This document shows, one piece after another, positions 45,085-51,201 of a DNA stretch of 64,000 bases (within the stretch, counting starts at the first letter, position 1; the number at the start of each line of letters is the position of its first letter). The translations under genes and the position numbers were made by a program. Where the stretch lies: contig JBAZNR010000003.1 in assembly GCA_041649175.1 (NCBI GenBank), forward strand, positions 79,449-143,448, written 5' to 3'. The notes under the pieces were generated by a model that saw only the letters and a program-made list of their open reading frames with translations, searched no databases and had not been told where the DNA came from. This DNA comes from Candidatus Omnitrophota bacterium. Lineage in GTDB: Bacteria; Omnitrophota; Gorgyraeia; Zapsychrales; JBAZNR01.

Positions 45085-47286
45085 TTAAGCTTTAGATAAT
45101 TTTTCCGCTTGCGCCTGAATATCTTTGGCGAGAGTTTTTCCGATTTGAGGGATTTGGGCGAGTTCATCGAGGCCGGTAAGCTTAAGGTCAGAAAGCCGTT
45201 TAAAACCTTTGGAGAAAAGATTTCGAGCGCGAACGCGTCCCACACCTTTCAGGCTTACTAATTCCAAAAGTTCTTCGCGAATTCCGTAATGAACCTGACG
45301 GCGCAGGTCTTCTAAGGTAAACGTTAAATTGCGGAATTTAAAAAGGTCCGCGATCACACCGGCCGCGTAAAGGATCCATCCGGTGGATTCCACGTGACGG
45401 TGAATGTCACCGGGCCCGACGCCAAAATCATCGCAAAGCGTTTCTTCCTTTTCTTCATTGATCCAACGGTAGAGAAGTTGTGTTGTTTTAAGAGAAGCTA
45501 AATAAAAATAAAGGTCTTCTAAGGCCGCCACATCGTTTTGCGTTACGATCAGGCTGTCGTGATTGCCATCGGCGAACTGTTCCAACTTTTCATAATCATC
45601 TTTTCCGATATGGAGAAGTTCTGAATCAGGACAGCAGCAGCTTAAGTGCAAAAGCCCTATCGCGGAAAATGATCTTTTCTCTTCCGCTTTCTTTAATCCG
45701 TCGCGCAAAATAATTCCGGTCAAAGGATCAATATAAAGGCGGCTTACACATTGGCCGAACGGTGTGGCAAAATATTTAAATCCGTTTTTCTCCACAAAAT
45801 CTTCCTTGTGAAGAAAATCAAAGATCTGGCTGATCATTTCGATCAAATTTCCGGTGCGTTTTTGATGCGCCAGAAAGGTGTGTGAAATAAATTCGAACAT
45901 TTCATTGATATCATGAACATATCCGGCGGCAATGGACGATAAAATGTGCATACGAAGCGCTGATTCATTATCTAGCTTTGAAATGACGGGCTCAGTTTTG
46001 GCGTTGATGTAACGGTCAAACAAGGCACTTGATTCCGAAAATGTTTTGGCAATAATAACGGCTTCGCCGTATTCGTCATATTTGGGCCGTCCGGCGCGTC
46101 CGGCGCATTGTTTATATTCAAAGGCCGGAATGTAAGCGGCACCAATACCTGCTTCATAACGTTTGCAATCGCGGATAATGGCTCTTCGGGCGGGGAGGTT
46201 AACGCCCGCCGCCAAAGTCGGCGTTGAGCAAATTACTTTGATAAGATTTTTCTTAAAACTATTTTCAATAAGTTTTCTTTGACCTGGTTTTAATCCGGCG
46301 TGATGAAAAGCGGCGCCGCAAACAATAACATCGGCTAATTTCCGGCAAATTTTTGTGGATTCATCGCGCGAACCAAGAATTTCTTTGGCAATGCGGGCGA
46401 GTTCTGCTTTTTCTTCCGGTGTTAACACCATAGCGGAAACTTCACTGACCAAGCGGCTGGCGGCTTGCGCGGAACGCCGGCTATTCACAAAAACCAAAAC
46501 CTGTCCTTTACCGCGCAAAGTATCAAGGGTAAGTTTGCTGACATCATCTTCGGGTTCTTCTTTAACAAGGCGCACGCCGTGTTTGTTAAAAACGATCTGC
46601 TCGTTAAAATAAACACCTTCTTTTAAGGGAACCGGACGCCAATCGCTGGTGACAAGCTCTGCTCCCAGCCAATCGGCCATTTCCTGGGCATTGCTGACCG
46701 TAGCGCTTAAAGCTAATATCTGAACGTTTGCGTTAAGCTGCTTGATGCGGGCGGTTAATATCTCTAAAGTGGGCCCGCGGGAACCGTCATTGATAAAATG
46801 AATTTCGTCTAAGACAACAACCTTTAAATTATGGATAAGCCATTTAGCCCGGAAACGTAAAAGCGAATCAACTTTTTCGGCGGTGGCGATGAGGATCTGA
46901 TAGCGGTTAAGGAAATTTGTGGGGCTGTCAAAATCTCCGGTGGCGATGCCGACTTTAATTCCCAGGGGCTCATATTTTTCTTTAAATTCGTCGAATTTTT
47001 CACTGGCTAAGGCTTTTAAAGGAGCGATGTAAAGGCAACGGGCATCATCTTGCAGAATGGCTTTGATCATACACAGCTCGGCAATGAGTGTTTTTCCGGC
47101 GGCGGTGGGAATAGCCAAGAGCAGATTTTTGCCTTCCAAGACGCCTTTTTCAATGGCGGCTTCTTGAGGAGGATAAAAGTTTTTGATGCCCGAATCAGTG
47201 ATGATTTTGGTCGCGGAAGCGGGGAAATTATGCTTTTGTAAAAGTTCTTCGGCGTTCATAGGAATAATAGGCATTACTTCTAACAT
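45085..47286 (-). CDS. Hel308/Ski2-like superfamily-2 DNA helicase
   Basis: 733 aa. Motif I AIPTAAGKT, motif II VVLDEIH, SAT, a winged-helix/ratchet region and a C-terminal helix-hairpin-helix domain (LVSLKGVGRVRARNLFSKGF...LAQIPQIGKTLAKDI), as in archaeal Hel308. The only long minus-strand gene in the window apart from exeAB. Confidence 0.75.
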   Translation of the reverse strand: MLEVMPIIPMNAEELLQKHNFPASATKIITDSGIKNFYPPQEAAIEKGVLEGKNLLLAIPTAAGKTLIAELCMIKAILQDDARCLYIAPLKALASEKFDEFKEKYEPLGIKVGIATGDFDSPTNFLNRYQILIATAEKVDSLLRFRAKWLIHNLKVVVLDEIHFINDGSRGPTLEILTARIKQLNANVQILALSATVSNAQEMADWLGAELVTSDWRPVPLKEGVYFNEQIVFNKHGVRLVKEEPEDDVSKLTLDTLRGKGQVLVFVNSRRSAQAASRLVSEVSAMVLTPEEKAELARIAKEILGSRDESTKICRKLADVIVCGAAFHHAGLKPGQRKLIENSFKKNLIKVICSTPTLAAGVNLPARRAIIRDCKRYEAGIGAAYIPAFEYKQCAGRAGRPKYDEYGEAVIIAKTFSESSALFDRYINAKTEPVISKLDNESALRMHILSSIAAGYVHDINEMFEFISHTFLAHQKRTGNLIEMISQIFDFLHKEDFVEKNGFKYFATPFGQCVSRLYIDPLTGIILRDGLKKAEEKRSFSAIGLLHLSCCCPDSELLHIGKDDYEKLEQFADGNHDSLIVTQNDVAALEDLYFYLASLKTTQLLYRWINEEKEETLCDDFGVGPGDIHRHVESTGWILYAAGVIADLFKFRNLTFTLEDLRRQVHYGIREELLELVSLKGVGRVRARNLFSKGFKRLSDLKLTGLDELAQIPQIGKTLAKDIQAQAEKLSKA

Positions 47287-47428: not shown

Positions 47429-47872
47429 GTGAAATTAGTTATTCAAAGAGTTAAAAGCGCCGAAGTTGCCGTTGACAAACAAATTGTCGGGAAGATCAAG
47501 GCAGGAATGCTTGTATTTTTAGGCATTGCCAAAGGCGACGGCGACAGGGAAGTTGATTATCTTACCGAAAAGATCCTTCAATTACGTATTTTTGATGACG
47601 CGCAAGGTAAAATGAACCGCTCTATTCAGGAAGCGGGCGGGGAATTTTTAGTCGTTTCGCAGTTCACACTTTTGGGAGATTGTGATAAAGGCCGCCGCCC
47701 GTCTTTCGACGGAGCGGCGGCCCCTCATTTAGCCGAATCGCTCTATAACCAGTTCGTGGAAAAACTCCGTAGCTTTGGCGTGAAAGTGGAAACCGGAAAA
47801 TTCCAGGCGATGATGGACGTTTCTTTGGTGAATGATGGCCCCGTCACCTTCATTTTAGAGAGTAGAAGTTAA
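47429..47872 (+). CDS. dtd: D-aminoacyl-tRNA deacylase
   Basis: VKLVIQRVKSAEVAV...GMLVFLGIAKGD...SQFTLLGD...NDGPVTFILES (SQFTL and NxGPxT motifs). GTG 47429 gives the canonical N-terminus. The track ORF starts at an upstream in-frame TTG, inside the predicted promoter. Confidence 0.8.
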   Translation: MKLVIQRVKSAEVAVDKQIVGKIKAGMLVFLGIAKGDGDREVDYLTEKILQLRIFDDAQGKMNRSIQEAGGEFLVVSQFTLLGDCDKGRRPSFDGAAAPHLAESLYNQFVEKLRSFGVKVETGKFQAMMDVSLVNDGPVTFILESRS

Positions 47873-47906
47873 AAAAGTACGTGTCCCCGGAAATTCAAAA
47901 TTGATA

Positions 47907-48064
47907 TGAGGCGATGTCGAGAGATTATTCATGTGCTGCTGATCCAGCAGCAAAGTACTCAGAGGCTCACTTAAGCCGTATGGATCATTGATGTTTGCAA
48001 TTTCTTGCATCTTTGATTCTTGCATCAAGGGCAGTAAGCAAAAATAGTTCTCGACGTCGCCTTA
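47907..48064 (+). ncRNA. candidate retron msr-msd non-coding RNA
   Basis: The segment GGCGATGTCGAGAG (47910-47923) pairs with TTCTCGACGTCGCC (48048-48061), with two G-U pairs, and the stem is extendable to about 17 bp. This is an a1/a2-like arrangement ending 9 nt before the RT ATG. Internal stem-loops include TGCTGCTG-ATC-CAGCAGCA (47934-47952), GGCT-CACTTA-AGCC and a TTGATG...CATCAA hairpin carrying a TCTTGCATC direct repeat. Confidence 0.5.
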
Positions 48065-48073
48065 GGATTTATA

Positions 48074-49552
48074 ATGAACATTAAATTAAATAAGTCAGCC
48101 AATGTTCTTAAAGAAAAATTCAATGCTTTACAGTCAAATTACGACCTAGCGAATTTGCTGGAAATTCCATATGCACATCTAACATATTATTTATACGGCA
48201 TTAAGGAGGAAAGAAAATATACACAAATTCAAATACCAAAACGAAGGAGCGGCAGTAGAACAATTTCTATTCCTTCTGATGGCTTAAAAATAATACAGGG
48301 GAAGTTGAATCAAATTTTTCAAGCCGTGTATGTTCCGCGATTTTGTGTGTTTAGCTACATCAAAGGCGGAGATATTGTTAAAAACGCTCGAAAACATTCT
48401 GGTCGAAAATATGTTTTTAAGATAGATTTAGAAAATTTCTTTCCTTCAATTAATTTTTGGCGAGTTCGCGGTATGTTCAAGGCCAATCCGTATAGTAAAA
48501 ATGATGAAATCTCTACCGCATTAGCTAAGCTATGCTGTCTCAAGGATGAACTCCCTCAGGGGGCTCCTACCTCACCGATTATTTCAAATATGATTTGCCG
48601 AAAAATGGATTCTGAACTTATAGGTTTGGCTAGAGAAAACCGATGCGACTATACGCGATACGCTGATGACTTAGTTTTCTCCACTTCTCTCAGAAATTTT
48701 CCAGTGGATATAGCTGTGGTGAAGTCAGGCGAAGTTTTTCCGGGAGAAGAGTTGGTAAACGTAATTACTGGGAATTTCTTTAAAATTAACTTGAATAAAG
48801 TTCGGCTTCAGACTGCAAATCGCCGGCAAATTGTTACAGGGTTAGTTACTAACAAAATTGTTAATGTGAAGCGGAATTATTTAAATCAAATTAGGGCAAT
48901 GATTCATGCTTGGGATAAATTTGGATTTAACGAAGCCGAAAAAGTTTTTCAAGATAAATTTGATAAATATCGAGCTGTATTTAAGGCTCTTCCCTCATTT
49001 CGCTGGGTCGTAGGGGGGAAAATTGAATTCGTTGGCTTTGTGAGGGGCAGGGAAAGCAAAGTTTATCGATTGCTGAAATATCAATTTCGCAAGCTAATTG
49101 CCAGAGATTTTCCAGGAGAAAGAGAGAAAATAATGAGTCATGAGTTTTCTGCTTTTATCTGTCATGCTAGCGAGGATAAAAAGGCCATTGCAAAACCACT
49201 CGAGAAGCGACTTATCGGCAAGGGTTTTGATGTCTGGTTTGATGAGAGTCAGCTTCGAGTGGGAGATAGTTTGAGGGCAAAGATTGATGGTGGATTGAGG
49301 AAATCGAAATATGGAATTGTTATTTTATCTAAATCTTTCTTTGAAAAGAAATGGCCACAAGCGGAGCTTGATGCGTTAGTCACCTTGCAAAATACTGATG
49401 GCAGGAAGAGGATACTTCCTATCTGGTATAATATTGAGCAAGCTGATGTTGAAGCGTTTAGCCCTATGTTAGCAGCGCTTGTTGGCTTGCGAACTAAAAT
49501 TCTACATCTTGATGAAATTGTTGAAAAATTAGCGGACGAGCTAAAAAACTAA
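48074..49552 (+). CDS. retron-type reverse transcriptase fused to a C-terminal TIR domain
   Basis: RT motifs: RTISIPSDGLKIIQGKLNQIF, KIDLENFFPSI, LPQGAPTSPIISNM, YTRYADDLVFS, and NRRQIVTGLVTNK containing the VTG triplet characteristic of retron RTs. The C-terminal 135 aa (FICHASEDKKAIAKPLEKRLIGKGFDVWFDESQLRVGDSL...YGIVILSKSFFEKKWPQAELDAL) follow the TIR-domain pattern including the conserved Glu. Coding GC is about 25-35%, well below the flanks. Confidence 0.85.
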   Translation: MNIKLNKSANVLKEKFNALQSNYDLANLLEIPYAHLTYYLYGIKEERKYTQIQIPKRRSGSRTISIPSDGLKIIQGKLNQIFQAVYVPRFCVFSYIKGGDIVKNARKHSGRKYVFKIDLENFFPSINFWRVRGMFKANPYSKNDEISTALAKLCCLKDELPQGAPTSPIISNMICRKMDSELIGLARENRCDYTRYADDLVFSTSLRNFPVDIAVVKSGEVFPGEELVNVITGNFFKINLNKVRLQTANRRQIVTGLVTNKIVNVKRNYLNQIRAMIHAWDKFGFNEAEKVFQDKFDKYRAVFKALPSFRWVVGGKIEFVGFVRGRESKVYRLLKYQFRKLIARDFPGEREKIMSHEFSAFICHASEDKKAIAKPLEKRLIGKGFDVWFDESQLRVGDSLRAKIDGGLRKSKYGIVILSKSFFEKKWPQAELDALVTLQNTDGRKRILPIWYNIEQADVEAFSPMLAALVGLRTKILHLDEIVEKLADELKN

Positions 49553-49589
49553 TAATCTGCTAGTAATTTCTAGGATGCGCGCTTAATTC

Positions 49590-49700
49590 ATGGCTAAGTT
49601 TATCGACACTCACGTTCATCTTGATCAAGTCGAAAGCATTACCGAAGGAAAAACTTGGCTTAGCCGCGTCGAAGGGTTTATTGTGGAGAGTAAGAGTTAG
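49590..49700 (+). pseudogene. truncated duplicate of the tatD 5' end (36 codons)
   Basis: MAKFIDTHVHLDQVESITEGKTWLSRVEGFIVESKS-stop aligns with the intact TatD N-terminus at 50425 (MLKLIDTHAHLDQIENITEELKLAVQAGVEAVV). 14 of the first 19 residues are identical. Shared nucleotide blocks are atcgacactcacg and cattaccgaag. Confidence 0.5.
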
Positions 49701-49717
49701 CAATTAAGCAAAGTGTC

Positions 49718-49734
49718 CGTGAGGTTGCCTCACG
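49718..49734 (+). terminator. short hairpin plus T-rich tract after the tatD fragment
   Basis: CGTGAGG-TTG-CCTCACG followed by ...GTTATTTTAAATT. Confidence 0.3.
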
Positions 49735-49790
49735 TAGAGCGTTATTTTAAATTCAAGGAATGACGAGAAATAATACAGGGGTAGCTTAAA

Positions 49791-50384
49791 ATGGAATTAA
49801 TATTCTTTATTTCAATTGTTATTGTGGGCGTTATAACTACCGTAATTAGTTTTATCCCATCAAAGAAGATGCTAAAAGGTATTAAAATTACACTTTTTGT
49901 CGTAATAATCCTATGCCTAATATTCCAAGCTTGGTATGGATGGAACGACAAAAAAGCATCTCACGTTAAAGATCTTAAAGATGCATGGTACCAAGATGAA
50001 TCCTTGCGGGGTCAAGCATTAATTTCGGACGATATCAGGCAACTTAAAGACAAGGAAAAGAAGGGGCTGTTAAGCGGCGATGATTATTTGTTATACATAG
50101 CAAGGTATTTAGAAAGCATTGATCAAACTTTAAAATTTCGAGATGGGAAGAATACTTGGGAATGGATTACTGCATATTATAATGAAGTAAGTAAAATTCC
50201 TTCATATTTTTCTTTGGCGGATTGGAAGGAAGCGGAGAAGTTAATTTATGGTTCAATGGTTAATGAGATTGATGATCATTTTGCGGCCAGAGGAAGATCC
50301 GGAGGTGGGGTACGACCGAAAGTACTAGAGATATTTAAAACAGAACGCGAAAGAACTATAAAAGCAAAAGAGCTGGAAAAATGA
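49791..50384 (+). CDS. hypothetical protein with two N-terminal TM helices and a charged cytoplasmic domain
   Basis: MELIFFISIVIVGVITTVISFI...ITLFVVIILCLIFQAWYGW, then a 140-aa soluble domain with no motif I recognise. Low GC like the RT gene. Confidence 0.4.
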   Translation: MELIFFISIVIVGVITTVISFIPSKKMLKGIKITLFVVIILCLIFQAWYGWNDKKASHVKDLKDAWYQDESLRGQALISDDIRQLKDKEKKGLLSGDDYLLYIARYLESIDQTLKFRDGKNTWEWITAYYNEVSKIPSYFSLADWKEAEKLIYGSMVNEIDDHFAARGRSGGGVRPKVLEIFKTERERTIKAKELEK

Positions 50385-50424
50385 GAGTAACAGATTTTGA
50401 ATTTTGGGAATGTATACCTAACTT

Positions 50425-51201
50425 ATGTTAAAACTCATCGACACTCACGCCCACTTGGATCAGATTGAAAACATTACCGAAGAACTAAAGCTTGCCGTGC
50501 AGGCGGGGGTTGAGGCAGTGGTGGCGGTTGGCGTTGACTTAAAATCCAATCAGAAAAATTTGGAGCTTAAAGGCAAAGCACAAACGCCGAAAATATTTAC
50601 CGCGCTGGGCATTCATCCGCAAAGTTTGGAAGTTTTTGATGAAGAGGAAATTGAAAAAGGCATTCGGTTTATCCGCGAACATATTAAAGACGCGATCGCT
50701 ATTGGCGAAATTGGTTTAGATTTTTGGTATAAGTGGGCCAAGAAAGACGAAATAAAAAAAGAACAGCAACGCGCTATTTTTAAACGCCAACTTGAAATTG
50801 CCGCAGAATTTAATTTGCCCGCTATTATTCACAGCCGCGGTACGTGGAAAGAATGTTTAGATATGGCTCAGGCCGCCGGCATCAAGAAAGCCAACTTTCA
50901 TTGGTATAGCGGCCCGGAGGATATTTTGGATGAAATTATAAAGTGTGGGTATTTTATCTCCGCGTCTCCCGCGGTTGCCGGCAGTCCTCAGCATCAAAAA
51001 GCAGTTTTGCATGTTCCCATTGAACAGCTGCTCATTGAAACGGATTCGCCCGTATTCTACAGAGAAGGCGAAAATGGTTTTCGTGCCGGGCCTAAAGATG
51101 TCGCGCGCACCTTAAAGCATTATTGCGCGCTGACGAGTATGGCACCGGACAAAGCGGCGGAAATCTTTTATCAAAACTCAAAAAGGTTTTTTGCGATATA
51201 G
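50425..51201 (+). CDS. tatD: TatD-family metal-dependent hydrolase/DNase
   Basis: LIDTHAHLD, AIGEIGLDF, IHSRG, ETDSP motifs. 258 aa. Confidence 0.85.
   Translation: MLKLIDTHAHLDQIENITEELKLAVQAGVEAVVAVGVDLKSNQKNLELKGKAQTPKIFTALGIHPQSLEVFDEEEIEKGIRFIREHIKDAIAIGEIGLDFWYKWAKKDEIKKEQQRAIFKRQLEIAAEFNLPAIIHSRGTWKECLDMAQAAGIKKANFHWYSGPEDILDEIIKCGYFISASPAVAGSPQHQKAVLHVPIEQLLIETDSPVFYREGENGFRAGPKDVARTLKHYCALTSMAPDKAAEIFYQNSKRFFAI

What the first reader, a model, noticed from the sequence alone, without database searches (positions are those of the whole stretch)
47873..50424. Low-GC accessory island at a dtd/tatD hotspot, with a diverged duplicate of the tatD 5' end inside it
Seen in sequence. The run from the dtd stop to the tatD start is markedly AT-rich: sampled 60-mers in the RT gene are about 25% GC, against about 42% in flanking dtd. 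Between the RT-TIR gene and the 2-TM gene lies a 36-codon ORF, MAKFIDTHVHLDQVESITEGKTWLSRVEGFIVESKS, that is clearly homologous to the first ~36 residues of the intact TatD 725 nt downstream. It shares the nucleotide blocks atcgacactcacg and cattaccgaag. This layout (displaced old 5' end, cargo, then an intact gene) is what is left when an integrative cassette inserts into the 5' end of a gene and brings a replacement 5' end with it. The two shared blocks are candidate recombination core sites. No integrase or transposase is visible, so the mobilisation mechanism is unclear. Two successive insertions (RT-TIR first, then the 2-TM gene) are also possible.
Basis: partly seen in the sequence, partly recalled or inferred. 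Interest (0 to 1): 0.7.

Follow-up and report, generated by a model that had tools for sequence, protein, structure and literature searches.

The report
Retron plus element remnant beside tatD
A small block of foreign DNA between two housekeeping genes of an uncultured Omnitrophota bacterium holds a complete retron-type anti-phage system and the leftover of a mobile element that inserted into the start of the tatD gene and brought a spare gene start; this is a tidy but fairly ordinary defence-island case.

Summary
Window 47873-50424 has 37.5% GC against a 43.4% window mean. It is the lowest-GC and most tetranucleotide-deviant stretch of the window. ORF 49590-49700 is a real copy of the first 58 nt of tatD.

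The island has two units:
- A complete type XII retron: ncRNA 47907-48064 plus an RT-TIR fusion gene. It sits in the old dtd-tatD spacer.
- An ~835-bp unit with no recombinase, bounded by direct repeats of tatD +1..+58. It carries one intact 197-aa membrane-protein gene.

In other Omnitrophota, homologues of that gene usually lie between an excisionase-like gene and a large serine recombinase, inside >12-kb integrative elements.

Seven relatives, including the closest (65% TatD identity), have dtd directly next to tatD. Five other lineages have different cargo upstream of tatD, some of it defence-like.

One other lineage (L028) carries an independent tatD 5' duplicate with the same +58 breakpoint, around an HTH-Fic cassette.

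Differences between the repeat copies are biased to third codon positions. That fits two functional alleles brought together.

Best reading: site-specific insertion into the tatD 5' end with a replacement 5' end, followed by decay of the element. The recombinase is unknown. This is a new member of known kinds, of moderate interest.

The parts
47429..47872 (+). dtd (D-Tyr-tRNA deacylase), the left core flank
   Evidence: Pfam Tyr_Deacylase E=8e-60. The gene is called at these coordinates on the source contig. It is conserved next to Hel308(-) and tatD in relatives.
47907..48064 (+). Retron ncRNA (msr-msd). The terminal inverted repeats are a1 47907-47922 and a2 48049-48064. The msr hairpin lies at about 47934-47952.
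   Evidence: Fold energy -63.3 kcal/mol, z=-5.6. The same architecture lies upstream of two RT-TIR homologues of 50% identity. In the three-way alignment, 7 of 29 pairs carry compensatory changes.
48074..49552 (+). RT-TIR fusion protein (492 aa), the type XII retron reverse transcriptase and effector
   Evidence: PADLOC RT-TIR_XII E=2.7e-146 over the full length. Pfam RVT_1 54-245 and TIR_2 361-455. The motifs NARKH (NAxxH), YADD and IVTG are read directly from the translation. These motifs are defined in PMC7736814.
49590..49647 (+). Left direct repeat: the displaced or duplicated tatD 5' end (+1..+58). It is the head of the 36-codon ORF 49590-49700.
   Evidence: 43/58 nt identical to 50425-50482, with 0 of 2000 shuffles as good. 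There is no significant homology beyond +58.
49637..49647 (+). CATTACCGAAG, the candidate crossover core (left copy)
   Evidence: It matches the resident copy 11/11, while +1..+47 is no closer to the resident (32/47) than to the orthologue L037 (32/47). It sits exactly at the homology boundary. The L028 pair ends at the same codon position.
49718..49734 (+). Hairpin CGTGAGG-TTG-CCTCACG in the 143-nt unique stretch between the left repeat and the 197-aa gene
   Evidence: Read from the sequence. The L028 fragment is likewise followed by a 16-bp-stem hairpin. Its function is unknown.
49791..50384 (+). 197-aa protein with two N-terminal TM helices and a helical C-terminal domain. It is the only cargo between the repeats.
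   Evidence: No hit in Pfam, PADLOC or PHROG. 21 homologues share 43-78% identity with many invariant residues. The AF2 model has pLDDT 73.7 and is all-helical, with no PDB fold match. Homologues lie between an HTH_17 gene and a large serine recombinase gene.
50381..50389 (+). ATGAGAGTA: an overlapping start that matches the first three codons (MRV) of the serine recombinase gene that follows the 197-aa gene in relatives
   Evidence: Identical to the L025 recombinase start. Nucleotide homology to the relatives ends at about 50388, and the remaining 35 nt match nothing.
50425..50482 (+). Right direct repeat: +1..+58 of the intact tatD, with the core copy at 50472-50482
50425..51201 (+). Intact tatD, the right core flank
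   Evidence: Pfam TatD_DNase positions 1-252 of 253, E=5e-58. The downstream order tatD, ~85-aa gene, purU is shared with L037.

Best explanation
The region is a composite accessory island in a lineage-wide variable slot upstream of tatD in a Candidatus Omnitrophota genome.

Unit 1 (47907-49552) is a complete type XII retron. A structured msr-msd ncRNA is followed by a reverse transcriptase fused to a TIR effector. By analogy with tested Retron-TIR systems, it makes msDNA and acts as an abortive-infection anti-phage system. The analogy is inferred, not shown here. The unit sits in what used to be the dtd-tatD spacer, leaving 33 nt on its left and 37 nt on its right.

Unit 2 (about 49648-50482) is the decayed, recombinase-less remnant of an integrative element, comparable to a cis-mobilizable element (CIME). 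The element recombined site-specifically inside the tatD coding region at codon 19/20 (+58, core CATTACCGAAG). It carried its own copy of tatD +1..+58, so tatD stayed intact and the previous 5' end was left behind as a 36-codon pseudo-ORF.

Shown: the direct repeats, their boundaries, the intact tatD, empty sites in relatives, an independent second case with the same breakpoint, and the mobile-element pedigree of the surviving cargo gene.

Inferred: that a site-specific recombinase did it, that the recombinase gene was later deleted, and which repeat copy is the native one.
For: 1. Foreign composition. GC is 0.375 against 0.434, the lowest in the window, and GC3 is 0.31-0.33 against 0.45-0.48. 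The island is rank 1 of 246 for tetranucleotide deviation.

2. Retron. PADLOC RT-TIR_XII scores E=2.7e-146 over the full length, with RVT_1 + TIR_2 in Pfam. The ncRNA has a 16-bp a1/a2 stem and z=-5.6. It is conserved, with compensatory changes, in two other RT-TIR loci. The type XII definition is in PMC7736814.

3. Empty sites. dtd and tatD are adjacent in L003, L005, L006, L008, L011, L031 and L037. L037 is the closest relative at 65% TatD identity and has the same downstream synteny.

4. Other occupants of the slot. L010 has a secreted protein plus a PDC-S01 ATPase. L032 has a 418-aa protein. L004 and L009 have a large secreted protein. L028 has DUF4145 and HTH-Fic genes, the Fic protein matching PDC-S04/SoFic.

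5. Repeats. They cover +1..+58 only, with nothing significant on either side. L028/L029/L030 carry an independent tatD' fragment, 52/58 identical to their own tatD and at most 42/58 to any other. It ends at the same codon-20 position and brackets a 1.2-kb HTH-Fic cassette with no recombinase. The fragments and element arms of the two genomes are unrelated to each other, so these were independent events at one site.

6. Differences between the repeat copies are biased to third codon positions: 13 of 21, p=0.007. That is expected if two functional tatD alleles were juxtaposed rather than one copy decaying in place.

7. The boundary block is 11/11 identical between the window copies, while +1..+47 is at inter-lineage distance.

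8. The 197-aa gene has a mobile-element pedigree. In L019-21, L023-27 and L034-36 it sits between an HTH_17 excisionase-like gene and a large serine recombinase (phrog_95 integrase, E=5e-112), in elements that also carry a D5-type primase-helicase (seen in the longer loci) and exceed 12 kb in L034-36. In L019-21, L026 and L034-36 the element abuts the 5' end of miaB. The window keeps the ATGA overlap and the first 9 nt of that recombinase gene.

9. Precedents. Tyrosine-recombinase elements integrate at 5' or 3' gene ends without disrupting the gene, and decayed elements that retain attL/attR are called CIMEs (PMC5704250). SXT integrates at the 5' end of prfC (PMC4542580).
Against: - No integrase or recombinase lies in or near the unit, and no relic of the serine-recombinase module was found anywhere in the 64-kb window.
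- The only recombinase linked to the cargo gene's family is a large serine recombinase. Such enzymes normally leave very short repeats (PMC5704250), not 58 bp.
- Reducing a >12-kb element to a near-exact single gene needs two deletions.
- The second case (L028) is also tiny and recombinase-free. That could mean small cassettes are moved in trans or by homologous recombination rather than being decay products.
- The element arms of the window and L028 share nothing.
- No relative closer than 65% TatD identity exists in the databases searched. The empty site is therefore not from a near-isogenic genome, and the native copy cannot be identified.
- The third-position bias in the window alone is weak (p=0.09).
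Confidence: 0.55

Rival explanations
1. Import by general recombination. A chromosomal segment from a related donor (cargo plus the donor's tatD), or a small circle carrying a tatD 5' segment, entered by transformation. It integrated by RecA-dependent single crossover, or by homology-facilitated illegitimate recombination, using the conserved tatD 5' end as the anchor. No dedicated recombinase was involved.
For: No recombinase is present in either the window or L028. The repeat is the most conserved part of tatD, about 40/58 identical even between distant lineages, so it is a plausible homology anchor. The third-position bias fits a donor allele equally well. Other occupants of the slot (L010, L032) have no repeats at all, so cargo there turns over by other means.
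Against: The right boundary (+58) and the left boundary (about the ATG) are the same in two independent events with unrelated cargo. That is unexpected for illegitimate joins. 58 bp at 74% identity is a poor RecA substrate. An identical 11-nt block sits exactly at the boundary.
Confidence: 0.2
2. An old local tandem duplication of the tatD 5' end, possibly predating the window/L028 split and kept similar by gene conversion. The cargo between the copies was swapped later.
For: The window copies are as diverged as orthologues from different genera (43/58 against 35-45/58). That is compatible with an old event.
Against: L037, which is as close to the window as L028 is, has a clean empty site. The two fragments are no closer to each other (40/58) than to the intact genes. 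Sequence after +58 is unrelated between the two genomes. The L028 copies are 52/58 identical, which indicates a recent event. The cargo has foreign composition.
Confidence: 0.1
3. The 197-aa membrane protein is an accessory effector of the retron, making a three-part system of ncRNA, RT-TIR and a 2-TM protein. The tatD fragment would then be incidental.
For: The gene is adjacent and co-oriented with the retron. 2-TM effectors are known for other retron types: clade 3 RTs are linked to 2-TM proteins (PMC7736814).
Against: PADLOC models RT-TIR_XII as a single-gene system. None of the RT-TIR homologue loci carries a 197-aa homologue, and none of the 197-aa loci carries an RT. A tatD pseudo-fragment and 238 nt separate the two genes. 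The homologues have a different, conserved partnership with HTH_17 and a serine recombinase.
Confidence: 0.03
4. The 58-bp repeat is a target-site duplication made by staggered cleavage during transposase- or Cas1-like insertion.
For: The two copies flank the inserted DNA directly, and the same boundaries recur in two genomes.
Against: No known transposase makes duplications of this length. A target-site duplication starts identical, yet the window copies differ at 15 of 58 positions with a synonymous bias. No transposase, casposase or terminal inverted repeats were found.
Confidence: 0.03

Closest known systems
Type XII retron (Retron-TIR; classification of Mestre et al. 2020, PMC7736814)
   Same: A retron-clade RT with NAxxH, YADD and VTG motifs is fused at its C-terminus to a TIR_2 domain. 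It matches the PADLOC RT-TIR_XII model over its full length. An upstream ncRNA has terminal inverted repeats, an msr hairpin and internal stems.
   Different: The host phylum is Omnitrophota, and identity to the nearest homologues is at most 50%. Mestre et al. listed the type XII ncRNA as not determined, whereas here a conserved structure is visible in three loci. msDNA production and defence were not tested.
CIMEs (cis-mobilizable elements): decayed ICEs or IMEs that keep attL/attR but have lost their integration genes, plus tandem accretion at one att site (PMC5704250)
   Same: [quoted passage not shown] It has no recombinase, and its cargo gene elsewhere belongs to an integration module. 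A second, unrelated cargo unit (the retron) lies next to it at the same locus.
   Different: No parent element with an integrase at tatD has been found. The unit is only ~835 bp with one gene. The retron is not bounded by a further repeat, so strict accretion is not shown.
[quoted passage not shown] From my own knowledge: e14 and phage 21 in icd, which carry a diverged replacement gene end.
   Same: Insertion is inside the coding end of a housekeeping gene. The element supplies a diverged but functional replacement end, so the gene stays intact and a displaced pseudo-end remains.
   Different: Those elements encode a tyrosine integrase and are tens of kb long. Here no integrase is present, and the repeat (58 bp at 74% identity, with an 11-bp identical block at the boundary) brackets a single gene.
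Integrative elements of Omnitrophota that encode a large serine recombinase
   Same: They carry the 197-aa gene at 65-78% protein identity. They sit against the 5' end of a core gene (miaB), which stays intact.
   Different: The window lacks the recombinase, the HTH_17 gene and the primase. Serine recombinases normally leave very short repeats. The left end of the miaB elements could not be reached, so I could not check for a displaced miaB 5' end.
Defence hotspots between conserved core genes (own knowledge: E. coli and P. aeruginosa hotspot surveys)
   Same: A fixed pair of core genes flanks variable, low-GC cargo that is often defence-related in different lineages. Examples here are the retron XII, a Fic protein matching PDC-S04/SoFic, and a PDC-S01 ATPase.
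   Different: Here part of the turnover leaves a duplicated gene start with a fixed breakpoint. That points to a site-specific component.

Membership tests
Retron type XII (RT-TIR) | Retron-clade reverse transcriptase with the NAxxH motif (region X), the YADD catalytic motif and the VTG triplet (RT7) | tested here: met
   NARKH, YADD and IVTG are read from the translation. The motifs are defined in PMC7736814. The best PADLOC hits are all retron RT models.
Retron type XII (RT-TIR) | C-terminal fusion of the RT to a TIR_2 domain in a single-gene system | tested here: met
   Pfam TIR_2 at 361-455, E=1.2e-20. PADLOC RT-TIR_XII covers 9-491 of 492 residues, E=2.7e-146.
Retron type XII (RT-TIR) | Adjacent msr-msd ncRNA whose terminal inverted repeats pair and enclose internal hairpins | tested here: met
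   The ncRNA spans 47907-48064, with z=-5.6. Its architecture is conserved in L012 and L016, and 7 of 29 pairs are compensatory. There is no Rfam hit, so this rests on structure prediction from only three sequences.
Retron type XII (RT-TIR) | Production of msDNA and anti-phage activity that depends on the TIR domain | not testable with these tools
   This needs expression, an msDNA gel and phage challenge.
CIME-like decayed integrative element | [quoted passage not shown] | tested here: met
   The repeats are 49590-49647 and 50425-50482, with 0 of 2000 shuffles as good. Homology is confined to +1..+58.
CIME-like decayed integrative element | Lacks its own integration and transfer genes | tested here: met
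   The only gene between the repeats is the 197-aa ORF, which has no Pfam, PADLOC or PHROG hit. No serine-recombinase module is present in the 64-kb window.
CIME-like decayed integrative element | Descent from an element that encoded an integrase for the same site | tested here: inconclusive
   Homologues of the cargo gene sit directly upstream of a large serine recombinase, and the window keeps 9 nt of its start. Those elements target miaB, not tatD, and no tatD-integrated element with an integrase was found.
CIME-like decayed integrative element | An unoccupied target site exists in related genomes | tested here: met
   Seven relatives have dtd followed by 0-220 nt and then tatD, including L037 at 65% TatD identity. 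No relative is closer than 65%.
Integrative element encoding a large serine recombinase | Encodes a large serine recombinase (Resolvase + Recombinase + Zn_ribbon_recom) | tested here: not met
   tblastn of the L035 recombinase against the window gave no hit.
Integrative element encoding a large serine recombinase | Very short direct repeats at the ends | tested here: not met
   The repeat is 58 bp. The criterion comes from PMC5704250.
Tyrosine-integrase element that targets a gene end and restores it (SXT-prfC type) | The target gene remains intact because the element supplies a replacement end, and an identical core lies at the distal edge of the repeat | tested here: met
   tatD is full length. 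An 11-nt identical block lies at +48..+58 in the window, and a 7-nt block at +52..+58 in L028.
Tyrosine-integrase element that targets a gene end and restores it (SXT-prfC type) | Encodes a tyrosine integrase next to an att site | tested here: not met
   No such ORF lies between dtd and tatD. The rest of the window was not scanned with an integrase profile.

The most novel reading that the evidence does not exclude
The first 58 nt of tatD may be a dedicated docking site in Omnitrophota for very small, recombinase-less cassettes of one or two genes, often defence genes. These would be moved in trans by a recombinase encoded elsewhere. It would be a cassette-capture platform functionally like an integron or a pdif-module system, but built on the start of a housekeeping gene. 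Each cassette would carry its own tatD +1..+58 copy as its recombination site.
Probability: 0.12. Interest if true: 0.7.

Novelty: new member of a known kind. Interest (0 to 1): 0.36.

Why it matters
- It extends type XII retrons to Candidatus Omnitrophota and provides a candidate conserved ncRNA structure. The founding classification left that structure undetermined for this type.
- It documents a variable, partly defence-loaded slot upstream of tatD across an uncultured phylum.
- It gives two independent examples of insertion at exactly codon 20 of tatD with a replacement gene start. That defines a concrete site at which to look for the responsible recombinase and for mobile defence cassettes in these genomes.
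- It links an uncharacterised, well-conserved 197-aa membrane protein to the integration module of serine-recombinase elements.
- None of this overturns current views. It is a clean worked example rather than a new principle.

Tried and rejected
- Rfam, at gathering threshold and at permissive E-values: no family matches the retron ncRNA or anything else in the island.
- Exact-protein look-ups of the window's TatD and 197-aa protein returned only the source contig and near-identical copies, with no alternative arrangement.
- The 5.8-billion-protein search found no TatD above 65% identity, so there is no near-isogenic empty site.
- The closest RT-TIR homologues (50% identity) sit in unrelated defence islands, not near tatD. 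The retron therefore did not bring the tatD fragment from a tatD-adjacent site.
- The 197-aa protein has no hits in viral contigs, phages or plasmids. The JGI metagenome scan gave only three loci, all with the serine-recombinase module.
- The structure model of the 197-aa protein (pLDDT 73.7) gave no PDB fold match. The afdb50 library was unavailable.
- I looked for a displaced miaB 5' fragment at the left end of the serine-recombinase elements. The left end lies beyond the 10-kb flank and none was found in range.
- I looked for homology after +58 and upstream of the ATG in both genomes. Nothing was significant. The apparent protein similarity out to residue 34 is therefore not relied on.
- I looked for shared element arms between the window and L028 and found none.
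- I looked for a relic of the recombinase 3' end in the 35 nt before tatD and found none.
- No short direct repeats flank the retron unit.
- The promoter and terminator scan found no more sites than expected by chance.


Full report
**Source and setting**

The window is part of a 659-kb contig of a Candidatus Omnitrophota MAG (ENA ERZ27247363 k141_2245591). The local gene order is ybeY, recO, a Hel308-like helicase on the minus strand, dtd, the island, tatD, an 83-aa gene, purU and a DUF2339 gene.

**1.

- The stretch 47873-50424 has GC 0.375, against a window mean of 0.434 (sd 0.015 for windows of equal length). It is the lowest such window.
- It is also the most tetranucleotide-deviant, rank 1 of 246.
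- GC3 of its two genes is 0.33 and 0.31, against 0.45-0.48 for five flanking core genes.
The mean is 38%.
- ORF 49590-49700 encodes the quoted 36 residues and lies 725 nt before tatD.
- Over +1..+58 the two copies share 43/58 nt. The local score is 50 against a shuffle mean of 12, with 0 of 2000 shuffles as good.
- After +58 and upstream of the ATG nothing is significant. The duplicate is therefore codons 1-19 plus one base.

**2. Unit 1 is a type XII retron**

- The 492-aa protein matches PADLOC RT-TIR_XII over its full length (E=2.7e-146). Pfam finds RVT_1 and TIR_2.
- Its translation shows NARKH (NAxxH), YADD and IVTG, the retron hallmarks described in PMC7736814. That paper defines type XII as an RT fused to a C-terminal TIR_2 domain (clade 8) and lists its ncRNA as not determined.
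- The 200 nt between dtd and the RT fold into a 158-nt structure (47907-48064). A 16-bp stem between the two ends closes it, and a hairpin and further stems lie inside (z=-5.6).
- The regions upstream of two RT-TIR homologues of 50% identity (L012, L016) fold the same way. In a three-way alignment, 7 of 29 pairs show compensatory changes, including the msr hairpin with its conserved GAUCC loop.
- Rfam has no match.
- The retron occupies the former dtd-tatD spacer, with 33 nt left on one side and 37 nt on the other. Relatives have spacers of about 75-220 nt.
- Its closest homologues sit in unrelated defence islands, never beside tatD or a 197-aa homologue.

**3. The slot is variable across the phylum**

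| State of the slot | Lineages |
|---|---|
| dtd and tatD adjacent (0-220 nt gap) | L003, L005, L006, L008, L011, L031, L037 |
| Secreted protein plus an ATPase matching candidate-defence model PDC-S01 | L010 |
| 418-aa protein | L032/33 |
| Large secreted protein | L004, L009 |
| 168-aa and DUF4145 genes, then an HTH-Fic pair (Fic matches PDC-S04/SoFic) | L028-30 |

L037 is the closest relative available (65% TatD identity). It has the same tatD, ~85-aa gene, purU order downstream as the window. No relative closer than 65% exists in the 5.8-billion-protein collection.

**4. A second, independent tatD duplicate**

- L028/L029/L030, from three samples, carry a tatD 5' fragment 1290 nt upstream of their intact tatD, with the HTH-Fic pair between the copies.
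- Their two copies are 52/58 identical and at most 42/58 identical to any other lineage.
- Homology again runs from about the start codon to +58 and then stops. Identity ends in the first base of codon 20 in both genomes.
- The fragments of the two genomes are no closer to each other than to the intact genes.
- The sequences beyond the repeats are unrelated between the genomes. A self-scan of 11 lineages found a duplicate only in L028, which with the window makes two cases.
- These were therefore two independent events at one position.

**5. What the repeat copies say**

- In the window, +1..+47 of the fragment is as far from the resident gene (32/47) as from the orthologue in L037 (32/47). 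The last 11 nt, CATTACCGAAG, are identical to the resident copy and to no other. This is the pattern of a shared core beside arms of different ancestry.
It says nothing specific.
- Differences between the copies fall mainly on third codon positions: window 4/3/8, L028 1/0/5, together 13 of 21, p=0.007. That fits two functional alleles brought side by side rather than one copy decaying in place.
- Which copy is native cannot be settled. The intact copy is slightly closer to the orthologues, but the fragment may simply have drifted.

**6. The cargo between the repeats**

- The 197-aa protein has two N-terminal TM helices and a helical C-terminal domain. It has no family or fold match.
- It has 21 homologues of 43-78% identity with many invariant residues.
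- In L019-21, L023-27 and L034-36 the gene lies between an HTH_17 excisionase-like gene and a large serine recombinase (phrog_95 integrase, E=5e-112). Its stop overlaps the recombinase start. These elements also carry a D5-type primase, and in L034-36 and L023 a 1270-aa gene (weak nSTAND NTPase match). The elements exceed 12 kb in L034-36 and abut the 5' end of an intact miaB.
- In L022 a homologue sits alone at the edge of another island next to efp.
- In the window, nucleotide homology to these loci starts at the start codon and ends 4 nt past the stop. The ATGA overlap and the first three recombinase codons (ATGAGAGTA, as in L025) survive. The next 35 nt match nothing.
- No other part of the module is found in the 64-kb window.

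**7. Interpretation**

The most economical account is site-specific insertion of an integrative element into tatD at +58. The element carried its own tatD start, so tatD was kept intact. It then decayed to a repeat-bounded remnant without a recombinase. This is the CIME concept, and the neighbouring retron makes the locus a composite island (PMC5704250). SXT in prfC is a precedent for 5'-end targeting (PMC4542580).

Weak points:
- No integrase is present.
- There is a mismatch between a 58-bp repeat and the serine recombinase that accompanies the cargo gene elsewhere.
- Both known cases are tiny. This keeps open a trans-mobilised cassette system or recombination through the conserved tatD start.

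I put 0.55 on site-specific insertion plus decay. The rivals get 0.2 for general or illegitimate recombination and 0.1 for an old local duplication. The remainder is spread over a retron accessory role for the 197-aa gene, a target-site duplication, and unlisted possibilities.

**8. Verdict**

The retron is a new member of a known type in a new phylum. The tatD-start duplication is a new instance of a known kind of event, with a newly defined site. Interest is moderate.

Noticed in passing
L035:10591-12369 and L026:1288-2967 (miaB starts at about L035:12300 and L026:2868): In the Omnitrophota elements that carry the 197-aa gene, the serine recombinase ORF runs 70-100 nt into the 5' coding region of an intact miaB, in another frame. 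In both lineages it ends at the same conserved FGCQMN-coding stretch. Either the element carries a replacement miaB start, or the recombinase tail is host-encoded after integration.
   Followed up: partly
L026:674-1291 and L027:5318-6761: There are signs of decay in sister elements. In L026 the 197-aa gene is split into two ORFs. In L027 no long recombinase ORF follows the 197-aa gene.
   Followed up: no
window 48288-48309 and 49768-49789: AAATAATACAGGGG is an exact 14-nt match (19/22 overall). One copy is inside the RT coding region and the other ends 2 nt before the 197-aa start codon. About 0.03 such pairs are expected by chance in 4 kb. It could be a microhomology used in a rearrangement, or coincidence.
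   Followed up: no
L031:7789-8000: The 212-nt dtd-tatD spacer of this empty-site relative is packed with GGTTACC/GGTAAC/AGGTTGC-like short repeats. The L037 spacer (719-869) is a long imperfect palindrome. Both suggest structured or regulatory DNA at the junction.
   Followed up: no
window 45085-47286 (- strand): A 733-aa Hel308/Ski2-like helicase with an 'archaeal helicase domain 4' and an HHH_5 tail is conserved next to dtd in all Omnitrophota relatives examined. It hits PADLOC HamB models only through its generic helicase core.
   Followed up: partly
window 50425-51201: The housekeeping TatD matches the PADLOC QatD model (E=1e-29). No Qat partner genes are nearby and the gene is syntenic across the phylum. 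This is family similarity, not a Qat defence system.
   Followed up: partly
L034/L035:1-3800: The serine-recombinase elements carry a 1270-aa gene with a weak nSTAND NTPase signature, followed by DUF4062-like and DUF6933 genes. This may be defence cargo.
   Followed up: no
L028:1594-1628: A strong hairpin (GGAGCGGATTTTGCCC-GCT-GGGCAAAATCCGCTCC) follows the L028 tatD fragment. After it come a TTGACA/TATATT promoter-like pair and palindromic operator-like sites ahead of the HTH-Fic genes. The cassette therefore appears to bring its own transcription signals.
   Followed up: no
L012:7512-8585 and L016:6437-9252: The nearest RT-TIR homologues are followed directly by other defence-like genes: DUF4917 in L012, and DUF4268 plus AIPR in L016. 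In L016 a restriction-modification pair lies upstream. Type XII retrons in Omnitrophota therefore sit in larger defence islands.
   Followed up: no
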